Positions 1-21,061 are shown, counted from the first letter of the stretch. The stretch is DNA of 26,969 bases from Candidatus Roizmanbacteria bacterium (GCA_013334845.1 JAAXWV010000001.1:1-26969); one strand, 5' to 3'. A program made the numbers and translations. The notes: a model not told the origin generated them from the sequence alone.

Positions 1-5
1 TGGAT

Positions 6-34
6 TTGATGATTCAAGTTATTTTTGATACAAT
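6..34 (+). promoter_or_regulatory. sigma70-type promoter of the tRNA
   Basis: TTGATG(6-11), 17-nt spacer, TACAAT(29-34) preceded by TGa; the tRNA starts 8 nt later. Confidence 0.6.
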
Positions 35-1807
35 AATGTAATGCGCGAGTGGTGGAATGGTAGACACGCTAGCTTTAGGAGCTAGTGCCTCCGGGCGTGA
101 AGGTTCAAGTCCTTTCTCGCGTACCAATGAAACGGTCTCAGTGTGTGACAGCTTAAAAAGCTCATTCACCCCTGGGACTTTTTCTATGTTTGTGATTCCA
201 CGAGCCAATTCTGCATATGACGGTACTTCATCGAAAATCACACCAAAATAACGAGCTTTTAATATCGGATTACAGTGGTCAATGAGTAGATCCTTCATGT
301 GTTCCACAAAGTATTTGAGATATGTCAATATTGTTGGCATATCGACTGTTTTTTGATTCATTTCTTCATCCTTTCTTGTGTCTAAATCGTTGACTTGCTG
401 TTCGAGTTCGATTAATTCCTCCTCCATGTATTTAATAGCTGTTTGTGAGCTAACTAGTTTCATCTTATCGACAATGACTCGCATTTGAGACTCGATTTCA
501 ATGCGCCTGTTCTCTCGTATCACGGCATTGTCTTGAACTTTTACATTTCGTCCTTCCCATACTTTAATGACCGCTTGCGCAACTTCGTCAAAACGCTCGG
601 GGCTTATCATGATACGTTCAACAAACGAATTAATTGTTGCATCGAATTCGTCCTTCGGTACGCGGAAATAATGACCGTGATGAGCGCAATGATACGCAGG
701 ATAATATTTGCCCAATCGACCACGCGAGGCGCTACCTAATAGCGGATTATTGCAATGCGGGCATGTTATTGCTTTGCGATATGGAAATTCTTTGTTATAG
801 ACATTCTTTTTAGCAAATTTCTCTTGTTTTGGCGCACTTCCAACTATCGGATGGTCGTGATCATCTGAATCTAGTGTTATGTGAAGTTTGCCACGATTTG
901 CCTTGTTAAACAAATCAATAGATACCAGTCCGTTAAACTTACACCTAACTGGCTTATCGCCAGTCCATTTTTCGGTATTTACTCCTGCATATATTGTTTT
1001 CGATATATATGCACGCAATAACTTACCAGTCATTCGCTTGCCACCGATGCGTTTAACAATTTTAGTGCGATTTATCTTATCGCGAACAACCTTAATTGGT
1101 GTTCTAAAACCTAAACGATTCATTTCTTCTGATATTTGATCGTCACTATGCAACCCCGATGCTCGCATTTCGTACATTCTGCGTATAATAGTAGCTTCAT
1201 CTGATTTTTCTACTAAAATAACACGTCTACCATTAACCGTTTCAATTTTTTCTGTCTTGTAGCCATAACGAGCGCTGCGAGACCAATAACCAATTTGAGT
1301 GTAACGAATCTCCGAACCAATCATTCGAGTTAGGATGTCTCTCACTTCATCCTTGGCGCGTTCAGCCTCAAGTAGTTCTGTTTTGCGCGTAGGCGTATGA
1401 ACGCTCCATTTATACTTCATGCCAAGATGCTCAAGAGTGTTTACTTTGACATTACTAATTACACCATACATGTCCTCTAGCACTACGCCGTGCGGTTCTA
1501 GTTGGCGTTTTAAAAGGTCATAGGTAGTTGATCCGCCGCGTGTAAAACGATCAATCGATTTAATGAGTACGACATCAATCTCATTTTTAGGATCAATGGC
1601 ATAATCAATAACATGTTGCATTGGCTGATTGTCGCCGGCGGCTGACTCAAGATAAGTTAAAATCTTTGTAATATTAATACCATGAGTTGGCGCATAGCGT
1701 TTACCTTGCTCAATCTGGGCTTCGGGCGAGTCGCCATCAGTCCCTTGCCCGACCGTTGAAACACGGACAGCAAGCACACCGTTACGCAATAATCTGTTTT
1801 GTTCCAT
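14..1807 (-). CDS. Large serine recombinase (integrase), 597 aa, with a C-terminus encoded antisense to the tRNA
   Basis: Catalytic RVST and SIDRFTR motifs, recombinase domain (YGY...IIRRMYEM), zinc ribbon CPHC...YHCAHH, coiled coil; adjacent to the tRNA. Confidence 0.93.
   Translation of the reverse strand: MEQNRLLRNGVLAVRVSTVGQGTDGDSPEAQIEQGKRYAPTHGINITKILTYLESAAGDNQPMQHVIDYAIDPKNEIDVVLIKSIDRFTRGGSTTYDLLKRQLEPHGVVLEDMYGVISNVKVNTLEHLGMKYKWSVHTPTRKTELLEAERAKDEVRDILTRMIGSEIRYTQIGYWSRSARYGYKTEKIETVNGRRVILVEKSDEATIIRRMYEMRASGLHSDDQISEEMNRLGFRTPIKVVRDKINRTKIVKRIGGKRMTGKLLRAYISKTIYAGVNTEKWTGDKPVRCKFNGLVSIDLFNKANRGKLHITLDSDDHDHPIVGSAPKQEKFAKKNVYNKEFPYRKAITCPHCNNPLLGSASRGRLGKYYPAYHCAHHGHYFRVPKDEFDATINSFVERIMISPERFDEVAQAVIKVWEGRNVKVQDNAVIRENRRIEIESQMRVIVDKMKLVSSQTAIKYMEEELIELEQQVNDLDTRKDEEMNQKTVDMPTILTYLKYFVEHMKDLLIDHCNPILKARYFGVIFDEVPSYAELARGITNIEKVPGVNELFKLSHTETVSLVREKGLEPSRPEALAPKASVSTIPPLAHYIIVSKIT
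43..126 (+). tRNA. tRNA-Leu, anticodon TAG, CCA encoded; integration target
   Basis: Acceptor stem GCGCGAG/CTCGCGT, discriminator A123, CCA at 124-126, D-loop GG, anticodon stem CTAGC/GCTAG with loop TTTAGGA, long variable arm, GGTTCAAGTCC T-arm. Confidence 0.97.
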
Positions 1808-1976
1808 GTACGGCCTTTATTTTTTTAAGCAAGACAAAGTCTTCCGCTTCATCTGCGGCGATACGGTCAGCAATTAGATTTGCGATAAACTCAATACGCT
1901 CCTGCGTACTCAATAAAACAGTTTCAGGCACCGCTAGTGCTTGTTTTGCTGTCTTGTTGTCTTGCTGATTCGACAT
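1782..1976 (-). CDS. 64-aa hypothetical protein overlapping the integrase start
   Basis: GGAGG 4 nt before the ATG; overlaps the integrase start by 26 nt; co-oriented. Confidence 0.7.
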   Translation of the reverse strand: MSNQQDNKTAKQALAVPETVLLSTQERIEFIANLIADRIAADEAEDFVLLKKIKAVHGTKQIIA

Positions 1977-1989
1977 ATACCCTCCATTA

Positions 1990-2018
1990 AGAGGTTGTCA
2001 CGTTAGCAATCCGGCTGG
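1990..2018. repeat. Left copy of a 29-bp imperfect inverted repeat (partner at 2432-2459)
   Basis: AGAGGTTGTCACGTTAGCAATCCGGCTGG vs the reverse complement of 2432-2459, AGAGGTTGT-ACGTTAACAATTCGGCTGG: 26/29 identical. Confidence 0.9.
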
Positions 2019-2222
2019 TTATTTATCCCAAGGGCGACCTGGTTTTGGTCGCTCTTTTAGTTCTTTGTCTATAAGCTGCTTTAATTCTTTGTCGCCAGTT
2101 TTAGCAAGTAGTGTTAATACTAGCTCACTTAAGGTAAGATCATGCTTTCTGGCAACTTCCTTAGCACGAGCTCGTATAGGTTCGGTGACTCTAATTTGCA
2201 TTTTTATAATCTCTCTAGGCAT
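2019..2222 (-). CDS. Ribbon-helix-helix (Arc/MetJ/CopG-like) DNA-binding protein, 67 aa
   Basis: Beta-strand MQIRV followed by helices EPIRARAKEVARKH and TLSELVLTLL. Confidence 0.7.
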   Translation of the reverse strand: MPREIIKMQIRVTEPIRARAKEVARKHDLTLSELVLTLLAKTGDKELKQLIDKELKERPKPGRPWDK

Positions 2223-2256
2223 TTGCCATTATTTTACAACAATTGGCAATATCTCG

Positions 2257-2409
2257 CTACTGACCGCAAATCTCACATGGTATTAAGTGATTAATTAACG
2301 CAAGCAAGTCTTCGTCAGAAGTCTCTTCTATGGTATCTGCTAAGTCGTAATATCGGCATTCGCAAACTTCATCAATCGCTTGTTTTTCTAGTGTTTCGCG
2401 CTTTTCCAT
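2257..2409 (-). CDS. 50-aa acidic Cys-rich protein (not in the ORF track): MEKRETLEKQAIDEVCECRYYDLADTIEETSDEDLLALINHLIPCEICGQ
   Basis: Translated by hand; GGAGG 4 nt before the ATG; CxC and CxxC motifs; lies directly downstream of a predicted promoter. Confidence 0.65.
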   Translation of the reverse strand: MEKRETLEKQAIDEVCECRYYDLADTIEETSDEDLLALINHLIPCEICGQ

Positions 2410-2431
2410 ATATCCTCCATAATAACTTTAT

Positions 2432-2459
2432 CCAGCCGAATTGTTAACGTACAACCTCT
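2432..2459. repeat. Right copy of the 29-bp inverted repeat; predicted first 28 nt of the leftward transcript
   Basis: CCAGCCGAATTGTTAACGTACAACCTCT, complementary to 1990-2018. Confidence 0.9.
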
Positions 2460-2465
2460 ATATAA

Positions 2466-2494
2466 ATAGTACCACTAATTAAAACAGTAAGCAA
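2466..2494 (-). promoter_or_regulatory. Leftward promoter for the 50-aa/RHH/64-aa/integrase cluster
   Basis: Minus strand TTGCTT, 17-nt spacer, TACTAT with an extended TG; +1 predicted near 2459. Confidence 0.6.
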
Positions 2495-2615
2495 TACTTT
2501 TTATGGCTATTTTTACATAAAATATATGGAATTCCGGTATTTGCTATATCTACCCTTAATTACTACTGTTAACTATTGCTATTATTCTCTCTTTCTTATA
2601 TATAAATATATAGAA

Positions 2616-3452
2616 ATGAATGATAGATCAAGTATAAACATCAAAGATGGTCGGTCAACTATAAAACAACCTCAAATAGACACATTAGAAGTACTGTATA
2701 AATATCGGTTTGGTAGTAGAAAATTAATTGCTAATTTACTTAAAGTCAACGAAAAAACATTATACAAAAAACTCATAGTATTAGTAAAACATGGTCTTAT
2801 TGGTAGTAAATTAGATAACAAATCTAAAATAAAAGGTTTGCCGGTTGCATATTACCTGGCGCCTAAAGGTCTAAAGTTTCTTCAATCACTCGAAAAACAC
2901 ACACATATCACTGACAAGATTATAAAGAGCAGTTACCGTGATAAATCCGCCTCCGAAACTACTATCGTACATTCTTTCGATGTCTTCTCGCAGATTCTTG
3001 CATTGATACAACCTTATCCGCTTCTCAAGGCCTATCTGCGTCGTGATATGAGCCGGTTTAGCTATTTCCCAAAAACTCTACCAGACGCCTTCTTATCGTT
3101 GTCTGACGGCAATACTACTAAGCGCTTTTTCTTTGATTACATTTCAGATAGCCAAGAGCGTAAAGCATTCTTTCAAAGAGTGTATACCTATATCGATTTT
3201 TTTGACCAAGGCGGCTGGAATATAACAAATACCGAAACACCCGTCCTGTTGTTTGTTGCCGAGAAAGCTAGTACCGAACGTCGAATTAGACGTCTTATAA
3301 AAGGCGTTATTAGTAAAATGGATTTAAGTGAAGAGATCGCTGCTTACACCACGACGAAAAAAGCCATCGAACGCATAGACAGTGACGCGGCAATATGGAC
3401 AAGCATTGACGAGCCGGACGAACTCATCTCATTAGTTGCGTGTGATACTTGA
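2616..3452 (+). CDS. Replication-relaxation (Replic_Relax, PF13814-like) protein, candidate relaxase; start at 2616 preferred over 2526
   Basis: LYKYRF N-terminal motif, YYL..KG, conserved His region, PDAF and RFFFD motifs; the first 30 codons of the longer ORF are AT-rich intergenic-like sequence. Confidence 0.72.
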   Translation: MNDRSSINIKDGRSTIKQPQIDTLEVLYKYRFGSRKLIANLLKVNEKTLYKKLIVLVKHGLIGSKLDNKSKIKGLPVAYYLAPKGLKFLQSLEKHTHITDKIIKSSYRDKSASETTIVHSFDVFSQILALIQPYPLLKAYLRRDMSRFSYFPKTLPDAFLSLSDGNTTKRFFFDYISDSQERKAFFQRVYTYIDFFDQGGWNITNTETPVLLFVAEKASTERRIRRLIKGVISKMDLSEEIAAYTTTKKAIERIDSDAAIWTSIDEPDELISLVACDT

Positions 3453-3476
3453 GCCTTTTTTGGTCTTGCTCAGGAC
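3450..3476 (-). repeat. 27-nt repeat copy 2, pseudoknot-like (GTCCTGAGCAAGACCAAAAAAGGCTCA)
   Basis: 24/27 identical to 3689-3715; overlaps the relaxase TGA stop on the opposite strand. Confidence 0.85.
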
Positions 3477-3484
3477 ATATCGGA

Positions 3485-3661
3485 TTACTCTTCGACAACA
3501 ATATCTTTGGTCAAACCAATGTGCGATACGCTATCGGTCACGCTACCGGTTTTATCAATCCAAACCTGTACGTAGAATGGTTCAACGTACCAACCGTTTG
3601 CTTTGGCTATCTTAGCCCAAAATGCTCGGTTCTTTTCAATCTCTGTTCGTAATACTTTCAT
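3485..3661 (-). CDS. 58-aa hypothetical protein (not in the ORF track): MKVLRTEIEKNRAFWAKIAKANGWYVEPFYVQVWIDKTGSVTDSVSHIGLTKDIVVEE
   Basis: Translated by hand; AAGGAG SD; co-oriented with the DUF3768 gene. Confidence 0.7.
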   Translation of the reverse strand: MKVLRTEIEKNRAFWAKIAKANGWYVEPFYVQVWIDKTGSVTDSVSHIGLTKDIVVEE

Positions 3662-3688
3662 AACTTACTCCTTTACGATTAATTTTGA

Positions 3689-3715
3689 TGAGCCTTTTTA
3701 CGTCTTACTCAGGAC
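3689..3715 (-). repeat. 27-nt repeat copy 1, pseudoknot-like (GTCCTGAGTAAGACGTAAAAAGGCTCA)
   Basis: 24/27 identical to 3450-3476; 239-bp period. Confidence 0.85.
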
Positions 3716-3723
3716 GAAAAAAT

Positions 3724-4032
3724 CTAATACTCCTCGGCCAACATGACCGTAAGTACTCGTTCACATTCCGGATGTAATGGATCGCACCACATCTCGAAAG
3801 ACGGATCGTAGTAATCTATCTTCCAGAAAACCGTCTGGTTTTCCCAAGTTAGCTTTCCAAAATCATGTTCGCCATGAGGATCGTTATCCTCATTAAACCT
3901 GTCATAACTACGAATAGTTCTAATCAAGCCCAAGGTATCTCTAAACTCGAATATGCCTCGAGTCAGGCTCATAGTCTCGACCTTGCGAAACTCATCGTTA
4001 CGCTTTGCTACCTTTTCTGCGACTTCGTTCAT
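3724..4032 (-). CDS. DUF3768-like protein
   Basis: NDEFR, DNDPHGEHDFG, FWKIDYYD and RVLTVMLAEEY motifs; AAAGGAG SD. Confidence 0.8.
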   Translation of the reverse strand: MNEVAEKVAKRNDEFRKVETMSLTRGIFEFRDTLGLIRTIRSYDRFNEDNDPHGEHDFGKLTWENQTVFWKIDYYDPSFEMWCDPLHPECERVLTVMLAEEY

Positions 4033-4088
4033 AAAGAACTCCTTTCGATTCGAGTGGTGCTAATACCGACCACTTCACAGGAAGGACG

Positions 4089-4171
4089 CAAAGCAATATA
4101 GGTTCGTCAAGGTGGAGCGCCCTTGACGTTTACCAAAGGACGAACGACCTTGATGGTTCTAGATTGCTTTG
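4089..4171. other. Nested inverted repeats (candidate oriT or ssDNA element)
   Basis: CAAAGCAAT(4089-4097)/ATTGCTTTG(4163-4171) enclose CGTCAAGG(4105-4112)/CCTTGACG(4121-4128). Confidence 0.45.
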
Positions 4172-4289
4172 TATAATGAGAAGACAGTGGGAGGAAAGAA
4201 AAAATAAACAAGTCAGTAACTGATAAGTACACGGGTTGTCAGTATATATTCCAATCAAGTGCTGATTATAATACGAGTATAATTAATCC

Positions 4290-5741
4290 ATGAGTAGTGG
4301 ACCGAGATCAGGAAAGCGAAGGAAGCCCAGCAAGATTGGGCGTAATGACCCTTGCTTCTGCGGAAGTGGTCTAAAATATAAAAAATGCTGTCTTTTAAAA
4401 GGTATAAACTTACCTAAAGCTTTAGAAATTCCGCAAGAAGTAATTGACAAAGAACGAGGAGCTGCGCGACGTAGAGAAGAGTACCTACAGAGCAAGGGTA
4501 TATATATTAGCCTTCCGAATACCATACATTTCAAAGGTAAGACTATGTTAGCTGTTGGGAATAAGGTGATGGTTGATGATAACCCCCATGCGACTTTCCA
4601 TCAACTTCTATTTAGAAACCTGCAGCAATCCTTGGGCGAACAATGGTGGAACGAACAGAACGATAAAACAGACACAGAAAAGCATTACATTAAGATTTGT
4701 TTTGAAAACCTGAAAGGCTCTGATACAAGAACTGACCTCGACGTAGCGCAGATTGACGAGAATACACGCTCTATGCTTACCACGGGCGACACCCAGTCAT
4801 TATTAAGTCTTGCTTTTGATGTTTGGTTACTGGCGCAAAAAGGATATCTTCGTGACGACTGGTTGAATAGGCTTCGTGACAGGAATCAATATCAAGGTGT
4901 TCGTTATGAAATCGGTGTCGCATCCATGTTTGTTCGTATGGGGTGCGAGCTTGAATTCTACGATAATGATCGCATTGAAGAAGACGGTAATCCGCCTAAG
5001 AGGGCTGAATTTATTGCCGTACATACCGAGACGGGAAATCGTGTTGCGGTTGAGGCAAAAAGTAGGCATGTGCACGGAGTTATACATACTCCTGGCACGC
5101 CCAACTATCGTGATGCACTAAAGGGCGATATTACTGAACTCTATAAAAAAGCATTAAAAAAGGTGACCGATGGCTTGCCGCTGGTAATATTTGTGGATGT
5201 CAATTCGCCTACCGAAGCAATGCAAGCCGCCCAAGATACGAAATGGTATCAAGACGTGCGACGCTCTTTTGATAGTAGACCGACACCAACGGAAGAGAAT
5301 CCTGATAAATATGCGGCTCTATTCGTTACGAATTTCTCGCCTCATTATCAGGGTAATGGAATCTCTGCGGGCGGACAATATCTCTTCATGGGTAGCCTGC
5401 ATTCGGAAAATTCGTTTACCGATGGTCATTATGGTGGATTTATGAAGAAACTAATTCGGTCTGTTAGTAACTACGGCTATACCCCTCCAAGTATGGATAA
5501 TGACAAGTTGGGCGTGTATGAGCAGGCATCTGGCCTAAATAAGGCAAGCTTTGAAAGAAAGATACGCGAGCTCACTATGCCGACTAGTGATGATCCAGAA
5601 TTTGACCGTCGAAAAATGGAATCGGATAATCTTGTTGAGATGCTAATTTGGGATACGACACAAAAAAGTGGCGGGGGTTGGGATAATAAGGTGGCGGCCG
5701 ATAACTACATACAGTTTGAGTGGTTATTCAAGCAGGCATAA
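4290..5741 (+). CDS. SEC-C motif protein with a putative PD-(D/E)xK nuclease-like domain
   Basis: KIGRNDPCFCGSGLKYKKCC at the N-terminus; AEFIA...AVEAKSR resembles a restriction-fold catalytic motif. Confidence 0.7.
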   Translation: MSSGPRSGKRRKPSKIGRNDPCFCGSGLKYKKCCLLKGINLPKALEIPQEVIDKERGAARRREEYLQSKGIYISLPNTIHFKGKTMLAVGNKVMVDDNPHATFHQLLFRNLQQSLGEQWWNEQNDKTDTEKHYIKICFENLKGSDTRTDLDVAQIDENTRSMLTTGDTQSLLSLAFDVWLLAQKGYLRDDWLNRLRDRNQYQGVRYEIGVASMFVRMGCELEFYDNDRIEEDGNPPKRAEFIAVHTETGNRVAVEAKSRHVHGVIHTPGTPNYRDALKGDITELYKKALKKVTDGLPLVIFVDVNSPTEAMQAAQDTKWYQDVRRSFDSRPTPTEENPDKYAALFVTNFSPHYQGNGISAGGQYLFMGSLHSENSFTDGHYGGFMKKLIRSVSNYGYTPPSMDNDKLGVYEQASGLNKASFERKIRELTMPTSDDPEFDRRKMESDNLVEMLIWDTTQKSGGGWDNKVAADNYIQFEWLFKQA

Positions 5742-10473: not shown

Positions 10474-10601
10474 AAATATATCTTAGCATTAATTAGTGTG
10501 AATAGGGACGGTTACTTCATCTATTGCTCTAATGATGAAAGTTTGAACATCCATCCACATATTTTTGAATCCGCTCTTGCTTATCATGCTATAATATGGT
10601 C

Positions 10602-10982
10602 ATGAAACAAATAACACAAGAATATGGACTACAAAATCAAGGTGGATTTAGCGATACACGTTTAAGATTTTTCGTGCTTGGGTTTATGAGTTTAGGTCTA
10701 ATCATGACACCATTTTTAGGAATGTTAGCGTCATTTATCGTGATGTTAATTTTTGCAATATTTACTGCAGTTAAAATCAATGAGTTTCAACAAAGTAATC
10801 AAGAGTCTATTTTGCTTCATCGTCAAGCTATGGATCGAATGTATAATTACGGTGCCAAAGCTGAGTATTATAGGATGCTGCTAAAACCATACGAAAAGAA
10901 AGCAATTAATCGAGCCGCTAAATCTCGAAAAGCCAATCAAATTAATCATATAAACAGTTTAAATCTAGCATTAAGTAGATAG
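10602..10982 (+). CDS. Small membrane protein; start at 10602 preferred over 10596
   Basis: Two-TM hydrophobic block; TGcTATAAT lies 6 nt before ATG 10602. Confidence 0.6.
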   Translation: MKQITQEYGLQNQGGFSDTRLRFFVLGFMSLGLIMTPFLGMLASFIVMLIFAIFTAVKINEFQQSNQESILLHRQAMDRMYNYGAKAEYYRMLLKPYEKKAINRAAKSRKANQINHINSLNLALSR

Positions 10983-10993
10983 GCGTAAACCTT

Positions 10994-11446
10994 TTATGCT
11001 GGTACTGGGAAAGACTCGCCAGATAATAACTTTCTCAGTTCATCAGTGGTAACAATTTTCATACCAGTAAGAATTTTTTCTAATTCTTCGCGTTTCCCGT
11101 TTGAAGATGGATCATTTCTGATATCACGAATGAAATCTTTTGGGTTATTTGTCACAAAATACTCACATTTCGCATGATAAGCAGAGTACAAATGTGCCAA
11201 GTCAAATCTGTCACTAACTTTATTTGGATGCATTATATCTTCTATGTCATCAATATCGTCGCCCGCCAAATAATCTCCTCCACCGAGAGTAGATACGCCT
11301 AGCATGAACACGCCCGGTATACTGTCGGCATGGCGGAGTTTTTGCTCGTAGTGACCTACATGCACCACCTCTAAATCATGTAGTCTTTTAAGATTTGTGA
11401 TTTTCTTTCGATCGACTCCTTGATCTATATACACCTTAGTACTCAT
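10994..11446 (-). CDS. Small PIN-like protein (TTG at 11452 is an alternative start)
   Basis: VYID at the N-terminus; D..HLYSA....CEYFVTNNPKDF is typical of the PIN C-terminal motif. Confidence 0.6.
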   Translation of the reverse strand: MSTKVYIDQGVDRKKITNLKRLHDLEVVHVGHYEQKLRHADSIPGVFMLGVSTLGGGDYLAGDDIDDIEDIMHPNKVSDRFDLAHLYSAYHAKCEYFVTNNPKDFIRDIRNDPSSNGKREELEKILTGMKIVTTDELRKLLSGESFPVPA

Positions 11447-15783: not shown

Positions 15784-16125
15784 ATGACGAAGCGAAATAT
15801 TAACCTAATTGTAATATTGTTTGTGGCGATCCTGTCACCAATAGTGCTATCTTCAGACGCCTTTGCGGTAAGTGCAAACGTCACTCAAGTCGAGAACTTC
15901 ATTCGAAGCGTCATCCAAGTCATTGCGGGTCTAGCCGGTCTAATAGCGACCGGATTTTTTGTTATTGGAGGCTTCGGATATATTACCAGCTCTGGAAATC
16001 CAGAGCATTTGGATCGCGCCAAAAGAACATTACTTTGGTCTGGAATAGGTCTGGCTATTGTTATAGCCGCATTCGTCATTAGTAATATTATCGTTGAAAT
16101 AGCGACAAATTCTTTCGGGAGTTAA
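15784..16125 (+). CDS. VirB2/TrbC-like pilin
   Basis: Signal-like N-terminus and two TM helices around GGFGYITSSGNPEHLDRAK; first gene of the operon. Confidence 0.75.
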   Translation: MTKRNINLIVILFVAILSPIVLSSDAFAVSANVTQVENFIRSVIQVIAGLAGLIATGFFVIGGFGYITSSGNPEHLDRAKRTLLWSGIGLAIVIAAFVISNIIVEIATNSFGS

Positions 16126-16134
16126 TTAAACAAT

Positions 16135-17676
16135 ATGATGAGCCATCTAACCATGAGTCTGCGTCTCATGGCAGACTCATCTAGTGCCATCACGGTGGTG
16201 CACAATTATGTTACGCCTACGATGCAGGCGTTAATCGCTATTGCCTCGATAGCCAGCGTGTTTTTCATTATGTATGGCGGCATACTATACATGACTAGTA
16301 GCGGTCGTCCAGAAAAGTTAGATCAAGCCAAGGTAGTGCTCAAGAATACTCTAATTGGCGTAGCATTAATAATCGGGGCCGGTGCTTTGACGGCTATTTT
16401 GAGCGGCGCCATGACACAAACAGTCTCTCCGAGTAATGCGGTGCTACCAAGCATCGAAGCGATTCAACCGTCAAGTTCGAGCAATGGTCTGATTGACATA
16501 CTAATCGGGGCAATTACTGGTCTTTTGAATAACATAATCCAAACCATAGCGGCGCCATTTATCGGAGCTCTCGATTTCTTTACAAAACAAACACCAAGCA
16601 TGGTGGATAATAGCGCCGTTTTTAACCTGTGGTTAGTAACGGTTGGTATAACCGATGCACTCTTTGTGGTTGTCATAGGACTGGTTGGTTTTCATGTTAT
16701 GAGTGCGTCTACGTTCGGTTTTGATGAAGTGGATATTAAACAACTATTACCAAGAATCGCTTTAATATTCCTACTCGTAAATACTTCGATCTTTGTAATC
16801 GACGCAATTATTGAGCTATCGAATGTTTTAATAGCGGCCATTCAACAAATTTCCGGTAGCAATACAGTCTGGCATACTTTAACTTCGGTTGTACAGGCGG
16901 CCGGTGGACAGAGTGTAGCGGCACTATTAGTCATGTTGGTATTTTTGGTGTTCTCGTTTATATTGCTTTTGTATTATGTCAGTCGTTTAGTGACGTTATA
17001 TATTGGAGCGGTTCTATCGCCACTGATATTTTTAATATGGTTGATCCCTGGATTTCGAGACTTCTCGGAAACAGCAATTAAAACCTACATAACGACAGTA
17101 TTTGTCATGTTTATACATGTCGTTATTTTATTGCTGGCATCGTCTTTATTCACCGGAATGGCGGCGGCTGGACTAGCTGGAGATGTGCCTAATGTTCTGA
17201 CTTCAATGATAGTCGGACTATCCACGGTAATTATTCTACTCAAAACCCAAGGTGTCATGATGCAATTTAGTTACGTTAGCCTAGGAGCTCGTTCAACTCG
17301 CCAACTGGGTACGCAATTCGTCAACGGCGTGAGTTTCTTGGCAGGACACGGCAAGTCTGCATACCGTTCTGCATCAGACAGTATCGCAAACAGCCGTTCA
17401 TCTTCATCATCGAGCTCAGGTAGCAGTAGAAGCTCGTCAGGATCTTCGGGCGGTAGTAAACAATCTAAATCAAAACCAAAGCCGATACAACAAGTTGGTT
17501 ATCGTCGACCAAGATCTGGTGGCGTTACGGTAACGAGAGTTCCGGCTAATAAAACCGGCACAACATACAAGGCGCCATCCCCCGGACTAACACCACGACA
17601 AACAGCCAAAGAACAAGTTATGAATTCTGTCAGTAAAAGCAAGACTAAGACGAAAGAAGGAGGTAAAAAGTCATGA
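16135..17676 (+). CDS. VirB6/TrbL-like polytopic membrane protein with an N-terminal pilin-like repeat and a Ser-rich basic tail
   Basis: Multiple TMs, YVSRLVTLYIGAVLSPLIFLIWLIP; position between the pilin and PrgI genes. Confidence 0.75.
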   Translation: MMSHLTMSLRLMADSSSAITVVHNYVTPTMQALIAIASIASVFFIMYGGILYMTSSGRPEKLDQAKVVLKNTLIGVALIIGAGALTAILSGAMTQTVSPSNAVLPSIEAIQPSSSSNGLIDILIGAITGLLNNIIQTIAAPFIGALDFFTKQTPSMVDNSAVFNLWLVTVGITDALFVVVIGLVGFHVMSASTFGFDEVDIKQLLPRIALIFLLVNTSIFVIDAIIELSNVLIAAIQQISGSNTVWHTLTSVVQAAGGQSVAALLVMLVFLVFSFILLLYYVSRLVTLYIGAVLSPLIFLIWLIPGFRDFSETAIKTYITTVFVMFIHVVILLLASSLFTGMAAAGLAGDVPNVLTSMIVGLSTVIILLKTQGVMMQFSYVSLGARSTRQLGTQFVNGVSFLAGHGKSAYRSASDSIANSRSSSSSSSGSSRSSSGSSGGSKQSKSKPKPIQQVGYRRPRSGGVTVTRVPANKTGTTYKAPSPGLTPRQTAKEQVMNSVSKSKTKTKEGGKKS

Positions 17677-18182
17677 AAGCTACAATAGTGCCGGCTGAGG
17701 TCACATCGGTAGAAGATAAAATAACCGCTAATCTTAGTATGTCGCAATTAATACTATTTGCCATGCCTATGTTTATCGGGGCATTAATGTATTGGATATT
17801 GCCCCCTAGCATGGATTTTAGTCCATATAAGTTAGTTGTTATCGGACTGATTGCGGTGACTAGTTTTATCTTGGCTATAAGAATTAACGGAAAGATTGTC
17901 TTGTTATGGCTGATCACGATATCTAGGTATAATCGGCGACCAAAGTTCTACTTGTTTGACAAACGATCAATCTATGCGCGCGAAGATTATCCAGAGGTTA
18001 AGCAAGAAGCGAGGCAGAAAGTTACTACGACGAAACAGACTGGTCTTAGCTCATTGCCAAAGCTTAGTATCAAGGAGTCAGATTTCGTTTACTCTGCTCT
18101 GAATAATCCGATTAAAAGATTAAATTTTGAAACCAACAAGAAGGGAGAATTAAATGTTCGCATTACGGAAGTCCAAGGCTAG
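17673..18182 (+). CDS. prgI: PrgI-family (VirB3-like) membrane protein
   Basis: VP..V..EDKI...LS..QL start and two TMs; ATGA coupling to the previous gene. Confidence 0.75.
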   Translation: MKATIVPAEVTSVEDKITANLSMSQLILFAMPMFIGALMYWILPPSMDFSPYKLVVIGLIAVTSFILAIRINGKIVLLWLITISRYNRRPKFYLFDKRSIYAREDYPEVKQEARQKVTTTKQTGLSSLPKLSIKESDFVYSALNNPIKRLNFETNKKGELNVRITEVQG

Positions 18183-18795
18183 ATCCAGTAGTCGCAGTCA
18201 GATTGGCATCAAGGGTATTAATGATGGTATTTTGATTTTACCGAATAACAGTTATCGAGCAGTCTTGGAGGTGTCATCGGTCAATTTTGAGCTGAAAAGC
18301 GAAGACGAGCAGGACGCAATTATCGAGACCTATGAAAGCTTTTTAAATTCGGTCGGTACTTCTTTGCAGATATTAATCAGAACTCGTGAAATCGACATGG
18401 ATAAATACCTGAGCGACCTGAAAGAGCGTCTGGAAAGCGAAGCTGAACCGGTCTATATGGAACAGCTTAAAAATTACGAGGAGTTTATCAAATCGCTGAT
18501 TTTATCGAATAAGATACTAACTCGTAGGTTTTACGTAATAGTGCCGTATAGCAATGTCGGCAAGCTGGATTTTGAATTGATTAAAGAACAGCTAGGATTA
18601 ACGGTTGACGTTGTAGCTAAAGGTATGAACAGGCTTGGTATGCAAGTCAGGCAATTATCTAGTATCGAAGCGCTTGATTTGTTTTATAGCTTCTATAATC
18701 CGCAACAAGCCAAAATACAACCACTGACAGAAAAAGCGATTCACATGATTTATACTGCCCTGATCCAAAAAGAAGAGAAAGGAGCGAAATTATGA
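18154..18795 (+). CDS. VirB4-associated protein resembling the N-terminal non-ATPase part of TraC/VirB4
   Basis: YRAVLEVSSVNFELKSEDEQDAI...FLNS...QILIRTR; overlaps both neighbours. Confidence 0.6.
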   Translation: MFALRKSKARSSSRSQIGIKGINDGILILPNNSYRAVLEVSSVNFELKSEDEQDAIIETYESFLNSVGTSLQILIRTREIDMDKYLSDLKERLESEAEPVYMEQLKNYEEFIKSLILSNKILTRRFYVIVPYSNVGKLDFELIKEQLGLTVDVVAKGMNRLGMQVRQLSSIEALDLFYSFYNPQQAKIQPLTEKAIHMIYTALIQKEEKGAKL

Positions 18796-20513
18796 AACTG
18801 GCGTTAAAACGCAAGTCTAAAAAGAATAAAGCTGATGAATTAAACTTGGCTTTTGGCGAGCAAGACGCGCTTGATTTAATGTCATATGCCGGTCTAGAAG
18901 AAAATATCGACCATTTAAATATTGACGGCATATATATGCGGACACTATTCATATCCGGCTACCCGTTTGTGGCTTCAAGTGGTTGGTTGGACAGCCTAAT
19001 TAACTTCAACCACGATGCGGATATTAGCTACCATTTACATGAAGTTAACGCACTTAGCGCTTTGCCTAAATTACATCGTAAAATTACAGAGCTCGAGTCA
19101 ACTAAACGCGCCATGATTAGGGCTGGCAAGATTATTGGATCAGAAATTACCGATCCGTTAGATTCGGCTATCGAACTTCGAGATAAGATTCAACGTGGTC
19201 AAGAAAAGTTGTTCCAGATTTCGATATATGTTTGCGTAAGGGCCGAGAGTTTAGAAGAACTAAATAAAACTACAAAATTACTTGAGACTACTCTTTCATC
19301 TAGGTTGTTTTACAGTAAAACTGCTCGTTACCAACAGCTAGAAGCTTTGCAATCGATTTTACCAAGAGCCGAAGATAAACTGAACCAAAAACGTAATTTA
19401 GATAGTAGTTCGGCGGCACTCACATTCCCATTCATGTCATCCGAACTGGTGCAAGAAACTGGTATTTTGTATGGGGTCAATAAATCCAACAACTCACTGG
19501 TCATCTTAGATAGATTCAGCCTGCATAATGCCAACAGCATCGTATTCGCTCAATCCGGTAGCGGCAAAAGTTACGCCACTAAGGTTGAAATATTAAGACA
19601 GTTAATGCAAGGTACGAAAGTTATCGTAATTGATCCAGAGCGTGAGTATAAGCGTCTGGCTGATTCGGTCAATGGCACGTATATAAAAATATCTTCAACT
19701 AGCAAACAAAAGATAAATCCGTTCGATCTTACGACTACATTTAGAAAAATTAATGACCTTTCCGAGCATGTTCAAGATCTGACGGAAGTCATTGGGTTGA
19801 TGTCTGAGGGTTTATCATCGAGAGAGAAAGCAGCCGTAGATAAAGCTATTCTAAAAATATATAAGAAAGCAAAAGATACGCAACCATTATTAGAGGACTT
19901 ATATAGTGAATTGCAAAAACTCGGACAGCTCAAGCTATGTGAACGACTTGAAAAGTATATCTCAGGATCACTGGCCGAGGTGTTTAATTCCCAGACTAAT
20001 ATCAATTTAGAGAATCGCTTGGTTATTTTTGATATCAAAGACCTGCCGGAATCGTTAAGGCAAATCATGATGTTAATAGTCTCCAATTTCGTACAGAACC
20101 AGGTTAAGGCACGGCCAGAGAGACGACTACTGGTTATCGATGAAGGTTGGATGTTGCTCGAACATGAAGAAAGCGCCAGATTCGTATCGGGTCTAGTACG
20201 TCGAGCCAGAAAGTATTATTTAGGAGTGTCGATAATCACCCAGCAAGCGAATGACTTTTTACATAATGACTATGGCCGGGCTATTGCCTCGCAAAGCGCT
20301 CTACGAATATTAATGAAACAAGATACTACTACCATTAAGAACGTGGCTAGTGAGTTTAATCTTAGTGAATACGAAGAAAGTTTTCTGCTGACATGCGAGC
20401 GTGGTGATGCATTAATTATTGCCGATCAGAACCACGTTGCGGTTAAGATTGTTGCTTCCGACAAAGAACACCCGTTAATAACAACTAATCCGGCTGAGTT
20501 ATATCATCTATGA
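18792..20513 (+). CDS. virB4: VirB4-like conjugation ATPase
   Basis: Walker A AQSGSGKS, VIDPEREY, Walker B LLVIDEGW, RRARKY...ITQ. Confidence 0.9.
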   Translation: MKLALKRKSKKNKADELNLAFGEQDALDLMSYAGLEENIDHLNIDGIYMRTLFISGYPFVASSGWLDSLINFNHDADISYHLHEVNALSALPKLHRKITELESTKRAMIRAGKIIGSEITDPLDSAIELRDKIQRGQEKLFQISIYVCVRAESLEELNKTTKLLETTLSSRLFYSKTARYQQLEALQSILPRAEDKLNQKRNLDSSSAALTFPFMSSELVQETGILYGVNKSNNSLVILDRFSLHNANSIVFAQSGSGKSYATKVEILRQLMQGTKVIVIDPEREYKRLADSVNGTYIKISSTSKQKINPFDLTTTFRKINDLSEHVQDLTEVIGLMSEGLSSREKAAVDKAILKIYKKAKDTQPLLEDLYSELQKLGQLKLCERLEKYISGSLAEVFNSQTNINLENRLVIFDIKDLPESLRQIMMLIVSNFVQNQVKARPERRLLVIDEGWMLLEHEESARFVSGLVRRARKYYLGVSIITQQANDFLHNDYGRAIASQSALRILMKQDTTTIKNVASEFNLSEYEESFLLTCERGDALIIADQNHVAVKIVASDKEHPLITTNPAELYHL

Positions 20514-21061
20514 GCCCAGTCCTCGTTATAAGTATGCTAAACGGCAATATCAGGAAGTATGCTATCGCGGCGGCCTTAACTGTCACGTTCGTCCTTATGA
20601 TGCCGCTACTAGCGATATTATCTTTAGGCGAGGACGCAATGAGCTTTTTGGCCGGCAGTGCGAGTGCTCAGTCGGCCGAAGAACAAGGTTTTTATATGGG
20701 TGCGGCAGTTCCAGGTGATACCTATGCTTGGGGTAATTGCACTTATTGGACATTTGCTATGAGGTTATGGGCAGATAAACCGATCCCAACTACTTGGGGT
20801 AATGCCAATACTTGGGATGAAAATGCCGTTTTAGATGGTTATGTAGTTGATCATGTGCCAGCCGTAGCAACTATTATGCAGACGGATGACGGTGATCTTG
20901 GCCATGTGGCTTTCGTAACGACAATCAATGCCGAGACCGGACAGTGGACGATATCCGAAATGAATGCACCGAGGTTCAATGTAGTTAGTACTAGAACTTT
21001 CGATAAGTCATCAGCTATATACTACGATTTTATTCACGACAAGATGGAGCCAACTCCATGA
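20510..21061 (+). CDS. CHAP-domain peptidoglycan hydrolase with an N-terminal membrane anchor
   Basis: YAWGNCTYW (catalytic Cys), WGNANTW, GHVAFV (catalytic His), ISEMN. Confidence 0.88.
   Translation: MSPVLVISMLNGNIRKYAIAAALTVTFVLMMPLLAILSLGEDAMSFLAGSASAQSAEEQGFYMGAAVPGDTYAWGNCTYWTFAMRLWADKPIPTTWGNANTWDENAVLDGYVVDHVPAVATIMQTDDGDLGHVAFVTTINAETGQWTISEMNAPRFNVVSTRTFDKSSAIYYDFIHDKMEPTP

What the first reader, a model, noticed from the sequence alone, without database searches (positions are those of the whole stretch)
1981..2494. Long-range 29-bp inverted repeat that may act as an RNA (or DNA-inversion) switch for integrase expression
Seen: 1990-2018 and 2432-2459 are 26/29 complementary and flank exactly the 50-aa ORF plus the RHH gene (413 nt). 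A TTGCTT-17-TACTAT promoter puts +1 at about 2459, so the transcript would begin with one repeat copy. The other copy ends in CCUCU, which can form a local hairpin CCUCU-UAAU-GGAGG (1981-1994) over the SD of the 64-aa ORF that overlaps the integrase start. Pairing with the leader would free that SD. The RHH gene has no SD, and TAAAAT lies 8 nt before its ATG inside a TTGCCA/TGGCAA inverted repeat, suggesting a second promoter whose transcripts lack the leader. Inference: the short transcript gives repressor only, while the long transcript switches integrase translation on. Alternatives: an RNase III processing stem, or an invertible 413-bp segment.
Basis: partly seen in the sequence, partly recalled or inferred. 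Interest (0 to 1): 0.8.

Follow-up and report, generated by a model that had tools for sequence, protein, structure and literature searches.

The report
Leader-spacer RNA switch gating integrase
The two repeat copies are the two halves of a conserved long-range RNA helix in the messenger RNA of a Saccharibacteria conjugative element, and it most likely lets only transcripts from the upstream promoter translate the small gene and integrase that follow.

Summary
The inverted repeat is real: 1990-2018 pairs with 2432-2459 at 26 of 29 positions with one 1-nt indel, and it is the best inverted repeat in the window. It is also conserved. About 30 related elements (25 distinct arm pairs) carry it, in Saccharibacteria conjugative elements whose serine integrases are as little as 48% identical.

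In all of them:
- Arm A sits just downstream of a promoter-like site.
- Arm B fills the gap between the stop codon of a ribbon-helix-helix (RHH) gene and the Shine-Dalgarno (SD) sequence of a 64-aa ORF that overlaps the integrase start.

The outer arm parts covary. Mismatches favour G.U in the sense RNA (37 versus 10 inferred changes). This points to RNA pairing rather than a DNA site.

The RHH gene has a conserved leaderless-type internal promoter in 38 of 38 distinct loci, so short transcripts lack arm A. In the window's subfamily, free arm B folds over the SD and AUG of the 64-aa ORF, and arm A relieves this.

The enclosed segment has the same orientation in 46 of 46 loci, which argues against DNA inversion.

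All evidence is computational. RNase III cleavage of the helix is a live rival. The scan's first readers had noted the same repeat in two other genomes.

The parts
2466..2494 (-). Predicted upstream promoter P1: -35 TTGCTT (2489-2494), 17-nt spacer, -10 TACTAT (2466-2471). The predicted start is about 2459, the first base of arm A.
   Evidence: Read. The hexamers and their spacing are kept in subfamily relatives. L077 has a different promoter sequence (TTGATA-18-TATAAT) at the same distance from arm A. The site falls below the consensus-scan threshold. No transcription start data exist.
2432..2459 (-). Arm A, the 5' strand of the long-range helix. It includes the nearly invariant core TTAACAATTCGGCTGG (2432-2447).
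   Evidence: On its own it is unstructured (-3.9 kcal/mol, z 0.05).
2257..2409 (-). 50-aa Cys-rich ORF with a GGAGG SD, inside the loop.
   Evidence: Homologues occur in 11 loci, always on the integrase strand. No family match.
2223..2249 (-). Internal promoter P2 for a leaderless RHH mRNA: -10 TAAAAT (2231-2236), 8 nt before the ATG, inside the palindrome TTGCCA/TGGCAA. The palindrome is a candidate operator.
   Evidence: A TAnnnT hexamer starts at -12 to -15 in 38 of 38 distinct loci, mostly at -13 or -14, and an SD-like sequence appears in only 2 of 38. The palindromes differ between elements.
2019..2222 (-). 67-aa RHH-like gene, the presumed repressor, inside the loop. Its stop codon abuts arm B.
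   Evidence: Weak DUF6364 and RelB/DinJ matches. AlphaFold model pLDDT 82, and the top Foldseek hits are almost all RHH proteins, though with non-significant E-values.
1990..2018 (-). Arm B, the 3' strand of the long-range helix. It fills the spacer between the RHH stop codon and the SD of the 64-aa ORF.
1962..2009 (-). Alternative hairpin of arm-A-less RNA, in three tiers. CCUCU (1990-1994) pairs with the SD GGAGG (1981-1985). UGACA (1996-2000) pairs with UGUCG (1971-1975), which covers the U and G of the AUG at 1974-1976. UUGCU (2005-2009) pairs with AGCAA (1962-1966).
   Evidence: -16.4 kcal/mol, z -1.9. Opening energy is 13.1 kcal/mol, against 8.8 +/- 2.7 for shuffled arm B, and 3.6 with arm A present.
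1782..1976 (-). 64-aa ORF of unknown family. It overlaps the integrase start by 26 nt. A recombination directionality factor is possible but not shown.
   Evidence: Homologues always lie between arm B and the integrase gene (order kept in 23 of 23 loci). No family found.
14..1807 (-). Large serine recombinase (integrase) of the element. Its 3' end runs into tRNA-Leu (43-126, plus strand).
   Evidence: Resolvase domain and phrog_95 integrase. tRNA.

Best explanation
Setting. The window is a conjugative element of a Saccharibacteria genome integrated at tRNA-Leu. Its regulatory operon reads on the minus strand in this order: promoter P1, arm A, a 50-aa ORF, internal promoter P2, the RHH gene, arm B, a 64-aa ORF and the integrase.

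The helix. The two repeat copies pair as RNA. Arm A is the first ~28 nt of the P1 transcript. Arm B is the spacer between the RHH stop codon and the SD of the 64-aa ORF.

The switch.
- Transcripts that start at P2 are leaderless RHH mRNA and lack arm A. In them, arm B folds back on the SD and AUG of the 64-aa ORF. These transcripts yield repressor but little 64-aa protein or integrase.
- Transcripts that start at P1 carry arm A. It captures arm B as soon as arm B is made, giving a helix of ~28 bp and about -43 kcal/mol. This leaves the initiation region open.
- The helix therefore works as a sensor of which promoter fired, and gates translation of the recombination genes.

Status of the steps. 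Shown by computation: conservation, covariation, strand bias, the conserved P2 and the alternative folds. Inferred: the two transcription starts, the in-vivo folds and the effect on translation. RNase III would probably also cut such a helix. This may add to or modify the outcome.
For: 1. Conserved position. Arm A follows a -10-like hexamer, and arm B lies 0-6 nt after the RHH stop and 0-10 nt before the SD. This holds in about 30 loci (25 distinct arm pairs). The loops range from 237 to about 1050 nt and have different gene content.

2. Covariation. The outer arm segments differ completely between subfamilies yet stay complementary. On a local-region tree there are 36 switches between different Watson-Crick pairs. 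RNAalifold recovers a 20-bp long-range helix in two independent alignments, and some of its pairs show compensatory changes on both sides.

3. Strand bias. Transitions that keep G.U in the sense RNA outnumber those that would keep it only in the antisense RNA. The raw counts are 47 versus 17 (p = 2e-4). As minimum parsimony changes they are 37 versus 10 (p = 1e-4). The sense duplex is more stable in 15 of 22 pairs, by 4.8 kcal/mol on average.

4. Folding. The full-length RNA folds with the helix in 23 of 24 distinct loci. The window's minimum-energy and centroid folds both contain it, with z = -3.9.

5. Promoter P2. It is conserved in 38 of 38 distinct loci, and an SD-like sequence appears in only 2.

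6. Occlusion and release. In the window's subfamily the SD-to-AUG region costs 11.7-18.8 kcal/mol to open without arm A. Shuffled arm B gives 5.8-9.1, and 0-8% of shuffles reach the native value. With arm A the cost falls to 1.8-6.1. One member, L011, is an exception at 7.7 kcal/mol.

7. Two occluding solutions. Most members pair GUGACA with UGUCAC. L077 and L081 pair GCGUAUA with UAUAUGC. The extra base in arm B, which forms the bulge in the A:B helix, is needed for the first of these.

8. Arm A alone is unstructured, so it is free to capture arm B.
Against: - No transcription start, structure-probing or expression data exist. All available runs are assembled DNA contigs.
- The P1 hexamers are weak matches to consensus.
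- For the window itself the occluding hairpin is only marginal: z = -1.9, and 8% of shuffles reach its opening energy.
- Over all loci, accessibility of the SD alone does not differ from shuffled arm B (p = 0.49).
- A sister subfamily (arms of the GGCUCC type) keeps the helix, but arm B does not occlude the initiation region there. The helix must therefore have another or older function.
- A near-perfect 28-bp duplex should be an RNase III substrate, which could change the outcome.
- The 16-nt core of arm A is nearly invariant. Pairing alone does not explain this.
- The folding calculations ignore ribosomes and folding kinetics.
Confidence: 0.55

Rival explanations
1. The helix is mainly an RNase III processing or mRNA-clamp stem, like the leader-trailer helices of rRNA operons or the phage lambda sib site. 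Cleavage of P1 transcripts would separate the RHH part from the 64-aa/integrase part and set their stabilities. Under this reading the effect on the SD is secondary or specific to one lineage. This rival is compatible with the RNA pairing and partly with the best explanation.
For: - Every locus has a near-perfect duplex of 20-38 bp.
- The helix persists in the subfamily where arm B does not occlude the initiation region.
- An RNase III domain (PF00636) is found in 39 of 41 related genomes.
- Earlier unchecked notes of this scan describe long-range helices bracketing other Saccharibacteria operons.
Against: - RNase III was not found in the window's own genome bin, which is 85% complete.
- No cleavage data exist.
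- It does not explain why arm B in the window's subfamily is also complementary to the SD and AUG, with two alternative solutions.
- It does not explain why arm A starts at the predicted +1.
Confidence: 0.25
2. The arms are two DNA operators for one protein: the RHH repressor, the Replic_Relax protein or the integrase. One operator would lie at the start of the P1 transcript and one in front of the 64-aa/integrase unit. The covariation would then reflect co-evolution of protein and site.
For: - The 16-nt core is nearly invariant in arm A and occurs only at the two arm positions in 624 kb of related loci.
- The repeat is found only in elements with this type of RHH gene.
- The RHH protein has an invariant C-terminal PGRP tail that could contact the AATT in the core. 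This last point is inference only.
Against: - A DNA site does not predict the strand-specific G.U bias.
- A 1-nt indel is conserved between the arms.
- Arm B is markedly less conserved than arm A.
- The core is invariant while the RHH beta-strand and the palindromes at P2 change between subfamilies. The palindromes are therefore the better operator candidates.
- The distance of arm A from the -10 varies from 6 to about 28 nt.
Confidence: 0.12
3. The arms are crossover sites of a site-specific DNA inversion. Flipping the 413-bp segment would remove the RHH gene and P2 from the path between P1 and the integrase.
For: Inverted repeats flank a promoter-bearing segment, and a serine recombinase gene lies next to it.
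Against: - The RHH gene is on the integrase strand in 46 of 46 loci, and the 50-aa ORF in 11 of 11.
- No strand-changing joints appear in contigs of four runs, including the likely source sample. This is weak evidence, because contigs drop rare variants.
- The arms differ by an indel and by mismatches, and show an RNA-type strand bias.
- No small invertase gene is present.
- From general knowledge, large serine integrases normally recombine unlike attP and attB sites, not two like sites.
Confidence: 0.03
4. The arms are terminal inverted repeats of a small mobile cassette that carries the RHH gene, or a chance repeat.
For: The content of the loop varies between elements, from no extra ORF to two extra ORFs.
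Against: - The position is fixed relative to stop codon, SD and promoter across elements whose integrases are as little as 48% identical.
- No target-site duplication is seen at the arm ends.
- The core is not found elsewhere in the genome beyond chance.
- The repeat is highly significant against shuffles.
Confidence: 0.02

Closest known systems
hok mRNA of plasmid R1: the tac/fbi long-distance 5'-3' helix with alternative ucb/dcb pairings (summarised in PMC9841398)
   Same: A long-range helix closes several hundred nucleotides of one mRNA. Which partner a segment pairs with decides whether an SD is sequestered or free. In both cases phylogenetic covariation is the main support for the fold.
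   Different: In hok the long-range helix locks the OFF state, and 3' trimming switches translation on. Here the helix is predicted to give the ON state, and its presence is set by which promoter fired. There is no antisense RNA partner, no toxin and no sequence similarity.
Phage lambda sib retroregulation of int (own knowledge)
   Same: Integrase expression depends on which promoter made the transcript, because only one transcript class contains both halves of an RNA duplex.
   Different: sib lies downstream of int. It acts by RNase III cleavage and 3' decay, and so gives a negative effect. Here the duplex lies upstream and is predicted to open the initiation region. RNase III involvement is untested.
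IS10/IS50 fold-back inhibition of transposase translation in read-through transcripts (own knowledge)
   Same: An upstream segment is present only in transcripts from an outside or upstream promoter. It pairs with the region around the initiation site of the recombinase gene, so the origin of the transcript sets translatability.
   Different: The sign is opposite: there the extra 5' segment blocks translation. That system has two elements, whereas this one has three (arm A, arm B and the initiation region).
State-dependent promoter switching and 5'-UTR stem-loops controlling int in ICEKp1 (PMC13023037)
   Same: A conjugative element integrated at a tRNA gene uses alternative promoters and leader RNA structure to tune integrase expression.
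   Different: ICEKp1 has a tyrosine integrase. Its local stem-loops act as an attenuator, and its promoters switch with the excised or integrated state. It has no long-range helix and no SD switch.
5'/3'-UTR helix of B. subtilis hbs mRNA (PMC5737220) and the leader-trailer stems of rRNA operons
   Same: The ends of a transcription unit pair over hundreds of nucleotides and enclose coding or structural RNA. The helix interacts with ribonucleases.
   Different: Those helices control RNase access or processing, not the choice between two folds at a downstream SD. Here the 3' arm is internal to the operon, not at the mRNA end.

Membership tests
Cis-acting long-range RNA helix or three-element translational switch (hok tac/fbi-like logic) | Both complementary segments lie on one transcript of the same strand. 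| tested here: inconclusive
   Arm A is downstream of a conserved -10-like hexamer in all three arm types. No terminator-like site lies between the arms on the minus strand. No transcription start data exist.
Cis-acting long-range RNA helix or three-element translational switch (hok tac/fbi-like logic) | Pairing is kept through compensatory changes in relatives. | tested here: met
   RNAalifold predicts the helix in alignments A2 and A3, and some of its pairs change on both sides while staying paired. There are 36 Watson-Crick to Watson-Crick switches on a local tree. Columns next to the core show up to four pair types, with 17-25 of 25 pairs complementary.
Cis-acting long-range RNA helix or three-element translational switch (hok tac/fbi-like logic) | Mismatches are tolerated as G.U on the transcribed strand only. 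| tested here: met
   47 versus 17 cells, and 37 versus 10 parsimony changes.
Cis-acting long-range RNA helix or three-element translational switch (hok tac/fbi-like logic) | One strand has an alternative partner that covers the SD and start codon. | tested here: met
   Met in the window's subfamily: 9 of 10 distinct loci, with 0-8% of shuffles reaching the native value. Not met in the sister subfamily.
Cis-acting long-range RNA helix or three-element translational switch (hok tac/fbi-like logic) | The switch changes translation in vivo. | not testable with these tools
   Needs reporter fusions, toeprinting or structure probing.
RNase III processing stem | A duplex of about two helical turns or more. 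| tested here: met
   The minimum-energy fold has 17-39 A:B pairs in 23 of 24 distinct loci.
RNase III processing stem | The host encodes RNase III. | tested here: inconclusive
   PF00636 is found in 39 of 41 relatives but not in the own bin, which is 85% complete.
RNase III processing stem | Processed RNA ends lie inside the stem. | not testable with these tools
   No RNA reads were available.
Site-specific DNA inversion switch (Hin/Gin/Fim type) | Both orientations of the segment occur in populations or relatives. | tested here: not met
   One orientation in 46 of 46 loci. No strand-change joints in contigs of four runs.
Site-specific DNA inversion switch (Hin/Gin/Fim type) | Like crossover sites and a dedicated invertase. 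| tested here: not met
   The arms differ by an indel and two mismatches. The only recombinase is a 597-aa large serine integrase that targets tRNA-Leu.
RHH operator pair | The site sequence co-varies with the DNA-reading beta-strand of the repressor. | tested here: not met
   The core is invariant while the RHH N-terminal strand differs: MQIRVT versus RFQIDAS. The palindromes at P2 do vary.
RHH operator pair | No strand asymmetry, and fixed length of the two sites. | tested here: not met
   G.U strand bias. A conserved 1-nt length difference between the arms.
Any Rfam family | A match to a curated covariance model. | tested here: not met
   Only the tRNA matched in window 1-4500 at E <= 1.

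The most novel reading that the evidence does not exclude
Something reads the nearly invariant 16-nt core of arm A (TTAACAATTCGGCTAG) sequence-specifically. Candidates are the invariant PGRP tail of the RHH protein, the neighbouring Replic_Relax protein, or a double-strand RNA-binding factor. The same short sequence would then work both as a protein-binding site and as one strand of the RNA switch. This would let the element's regulator directly set, or sense, whether the integrase message is open.
Probability: 0.12. Interest if true: 0.75.

Novelty: new variant of a known kind. Interest (0 to 1): 0.6.

Why it matters
How conjugative elements keep their integrase silent yet ready to fire is known for only a few model elements. 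Nothing is known for the ultra-small, uncultivated Saccharibacteria.

This module suggests a compact design. One repressor gene has its own leaderless promoter, and a three-part RNA switch makes translation of the recombination genes depend on which promoter fired.

About 25 natural sequence variants with covariation are in hand, so the element is well enough defined for a new RNA family. It can be tested directly with reporter fusions in a standard host.

It also adds a case with a readable logic to the long-range mRNA helices that this scan keeps finding in Saccharibacteria.

Tried and rejected
- DNA-level search of 189 genomes of the same family with window 1750-2550 gave only short chance matches. 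Relatives had to be found through the integrase protein.
- A scan of viral contigs for the exact core gave 36 hits, about the chance number. None encodes the integrase, RHH or 64-aa homologues.
- Rfam gave nothing but the tRNA.
- Laying contigs of four runs showed no inversion joints. It showed only a graph branch at arm A caused by a co-occurring variant element. All runs are DNA assemblies, so no RNA ends could be read.
- My first test of the anti-SD idea used the unpaired probability of GGAGG alone against shuffled arm B. It was not significant over all loci (p = 0.49). The signal appeared only when the whole SD-to-AUG region was scored and the two subfamilies were separated.
- A promoter inside arm A (TTAACA-17-TATTAT) was rejected because the -10 is not kept in relatives.
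- The 64-aa ORF could not be assigned to any family with Pfam, PHROGs, NCBIfam or the Atlas.
- PF14622 was not found in the own genome bin.
- The profile search of solved structures with the RHH alignment gave only weak antitoxin hits.
- The integrase tree proved unsuitable for counting arm changes, because regulatory modules are shuffled between integrase lineages. A local-region tree was used instead.

Full report
**Context.** The window is a whole 26,969-bp contig of a Saccharibacteria (TM7) genome bin. It carries the following genes, in order:
- tRNA-Leu at 43-126;
- a 597-aa large serine recombinase, 1807 to 14 on the minus strand;
- a 64-aa ORF (1976-1782) that overlaps the integrase start by 26 nt;
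- a 67-aa RHH-like ORF (2222-2019);
- a 50-aa Cys-rich ORF (2409-2257);
- a divergent Replic_Relax gene (2526-3452);
- defence genes (ApeA-HEPN, PIN, an AlwI-type restriction-modification system);
- a monoderm-type type IV secretion gene set.

It is therefore an integrative conjugative element, and the finding lies in its regulatory corner. The RHH assignment rests on three things: weak family matches, an AlphaFold model with pLDDT 82, and a Foldseek hit list made almost only of RHH proteins such as Arc, PutA, AtaR, ParD and NikA. The Foldseek E-values are not significant for so short a protein.

**Observation.** The repeat is as described. Window 1990-2018 and the reverse complement of 2432-2459 align with 26 matches, two transitions and one 1-nt indel. 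The 413 nt in between hold exactly the 50-aa ORF and the RHH gene. It is the highest-scoring inverted repeat in the window at 50-1000 nt spacing. A degenerate 19-nt arm pattern occurs only at these two places, against 0.01 expected.
- the TTGCTT-17-TACTAT hexamers;
- the CCUCU-UAAU-GGAGG hairpin;
- TAAAAT 8 nt before the SD-less RHH ATG, inside the TTGCCA/TGGCAA repeat.

**Related elements.** DNA searches in the same family found nothing. I therefore collected loci through the integrase protein: 28 from species-representative genomes and 80 from metagenomes. The gene order is widely kept: Replic_Relax (divergent), an optional small ORF or two, RHH, the 64-aa ORF, then integrase.

In about 30 loci (25 distinct arm pairs) the sequence right after the RHH stop codon is complementary to a sequence 237 to about 1050 nt upstream. 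Most of these loci have 0 to 1 of 100-200 shuffles reaching the native score. They include elements whose integrases are only 48-50% identical to the window's. Arm B always begins 0-6 nt after the stop codon and ends 0-10 nt before the GGAGG of the 64-aa ORF. Arm A always follows a -10-like hexamer.

The repeat is absent from loci without this RHH gene. It is also absent from one subgroup with a different RHH and no recognisable 64-aa ORF.

**RNA or DNA?** Four observations favour pairing in the sense-strand RNA.
- *Covariation.* The outer arm parts differ completely between subfamilies yet stay complementary. Three types start with AGAGGUUGUACG, with GGCUCC and with GGUGCC. RNAalifold predicts a 20-bp long-range helix in two separate alignments, and some of its pairs change on both sides while staying paired. 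Columns next to the core show up to four different Watson-Crick pairs, with 17-25 of 25 pairs complementary. A parsimony count on a tree of the flanking region gives 36 switches between Watson-Crick pairs.
- *Strand bias.* Transitions that leave G.U in the sense RNA outnumber those that would leave G.U only in the antisense RNA. The counts are 47 versus 17 cells (p = 2e-4) and 37 versus 10 minimum changes on the local tree (p = 1e-4). The sense duplex is more stable in 15 of 22 pairs. A protein-binding DNA site or a recombination site predicts no such bias.
- *A conserved 1-nt length difference between the arms.* A bulge is harmless in RNA but awkward for two copies of one DNA site.
- *Orientation.* The enclosed segment has the same orientation in 46 of 46 loci. 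No strand-switch joints appear in contigs of four sequencing runs, though contigs would miss rare forms.

Thermodynamic folding of the full-length RNA contains the helix in 23 of 24 distinct loci. In the window it appears in both the minimum-energy and centroid folds, with z = -3.9.

**Two promoters.** The RHH ATG is preceded by a TAnnnT hexamer starting at -12 to -15, mostly at -13 or -14 and often with TG upstream. This holds in 38 of 38 distinct loci, and an SD-like sequence appears in only 2. By contrast the 50-aa and 64-aa ORFs carry GGAGG.

This is the layout of a leaderless mRNA, so the RHH gene very likely has its own promoter (P2) inside the loop. The -10 sits in a palindrome whose sequence changes between elements, which makes it a good operator candidate.

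Upstream of arm A, the window's subfamily keeps TTGCTT-17-TACTAT ending 6-7 nt before the first paired base. L077 has an unrelated TTGATA-18-TATAAT at the same distance. P1 transcripts would therefore begin with arm A, and P2 transcripts would lack it.

**What the helix does.** In arm-A-less RNA of the window, arm B is the 5' strand of a three-tier hairpin (1962-2009, -16.4 kcal/mol):
- CCUCU pairs with the SD;
- UGACA pairs with UGUCG across the AUG;
- UUGCU pairs with AGCAA in codons 4-6.

The same design is found in nine of the ten distinct loci of the window's subfamily. Opening the SD-to-AUG region costs 11.7-18.8 kcal/mol without arm A. Shuffled arm B gives 5.8-9.1, and 0-8% of shuffles reach the native value. 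With arm A present the cost falls to 1.8-6.1. There are two solutions. Most members pair GUGACA with UGUCAC. L077 and L081 pair GCGUAUA with UAUAUGC. The extra base that forms the bulge in the A:B helix is part of the first solution.

Arm A alone is unstructured. Arm B is transcribed before its local partner, so capture by arm A is kinetically plausible (inference).

P2 transcripts would give repressor only. P1 transcripts would open translation of the 64-aa ORF and, through the 26-nt overlap, of the integrase.

**Limits.**
- The window itself is a marginal case: z = -1.9, and 8% of shuffles reach its opening energy.
- Scoring the SD alone gave no overall signal.
- The sister subfamily (GGCUCC arms) keeps the helix, but its initiation region sits in its own small hairpin that is independent of arm B.

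The helix is therefore older than the SD switch, or does more than that. A 20-38 bp duplex is a natural RNase III substrate, and 39 of 41 related genomes encode the enzyme. It was not found in the 85%-complete own bin. Processing or stabilisation of the enclosed RHH message is thus the main rival and may coexist with the switch.

One feature is unexplained. The 16-nt core of arm A is nearly invariant across all subfamilies, while arm B's copy drifts, mostly by G.U-compatible changes. The core occurs nowhere else in 624 kb of related loci. Something reads arm A by sequence. The core does not change when the RHH beta-strand does, so it is unlikely to be the RHH operator.

**Comparison with known systems.** The logic resembles four cases:
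- the tac/fbi long-distance helix and alternative pairings of hok mRNA (PMC9841398);
- lambda sib retroregulation of int (own knowledge);
- IS10 fold-back inhibition (own knowledge);
- the promoter switching with leader stem-loops recently described for int of ICEKp1 (PMC13023037).

It is not a member of any of these. The sign, the position of the segments and the promoter-of-origin input all differ, and no Rfam family matches. I rate it a new variant of a known kind. First readers of this scan had noted the same repeat in two other genomes, and follow-up agents had described long-range mRNA helices elsewhere in Saccharibacteria. Those notes are leads, not evidence.

Noticed in passing
window 2030-2056 (+ strand): A terminator-like hairpin followed by a T-run lies on the plus strand, inside the 3' end of the RHH gene. 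It faces transcription that would read in from tRNA-Leu, antisense to the integrase and the 64-aa ORF. Its stem pairs are nearly invariant in relatives, so they give little covariation evidence either way.
   Followed up: no
window 2019-2045 (C-terminus of the RHH ORF): The RHH protein ends in an invariant PGRP motif within KPGRPWDK. It resembles an AT-hook and is kept even where the N-terminal beta-strand differs. It could contact the AATT in the invariant arm core. This is speculation.
   Followed up: no
L013, L050, L052, L009 upstream of arm A (for example L013:3040-3075): The P1 regions of relatives carry perfect palindromes over the -35/-10 spacer, such as TAATACATGTATTA, GTAGTACATGTACTAC and AGTATT-N19-AATACT. 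These look like operators and differ between elements.
   Followed up: partly
L038, L039, L050 just upstream of the 64-aa ORF: In the sister subfamily the initiation region forms its own hairpin. GACAU pairs with AUGUC and the SD sits in the loop, independent of arm B.
   Followed up: partly
trees: The integrase tree and the tree of the regulatory region disagree. For example, L038 has an integrase close to L009-L012 but arms of the other type. Regulatory modules are therefore exchanged between elements.
   Followed up: partly
window 2442-2505 and 3717-3814: In the likely source sample the assembly graph branches at arm A. A second contig, at about twice the depth, shares 2442-2505 and 3717-3814 but has about 1.46 kb of different sequence in place of 2506-3716, which includes the Replic_Relax gene. 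A related element therefore co-occurs in the sample.
   Followed up: no
window 10577-10606 and 11145-11176: This is the second-best inverted repeat of the window (score 20, with a 12-nt exact core TGCTTATCATGC). One arm overlaps the TGcTATAAT promoter of a leaderless 128-aa gene. The other lies inside the neighbouring PIN-like ORF.
   Followed up: no
window 14-127: The integrase ORF runs antisense into tRNA-Leu, and homologues keep a tRNA-antisense-like tail (VSLVR.RGLEP in the consensus). This agrees with the earlier report that the integrase gene spans its own recombination site.
   Followed up: partly
window 15784-23553: A survey of Patescibacteria type IV secretion systems found relaxases in few genomes and suggested non-conjugative roles (PMC12102498). 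Here the same kind of gene set sits on a tRNA-integrated element with a serine integrase and a Replic_Relax protein.
   Followed up: no
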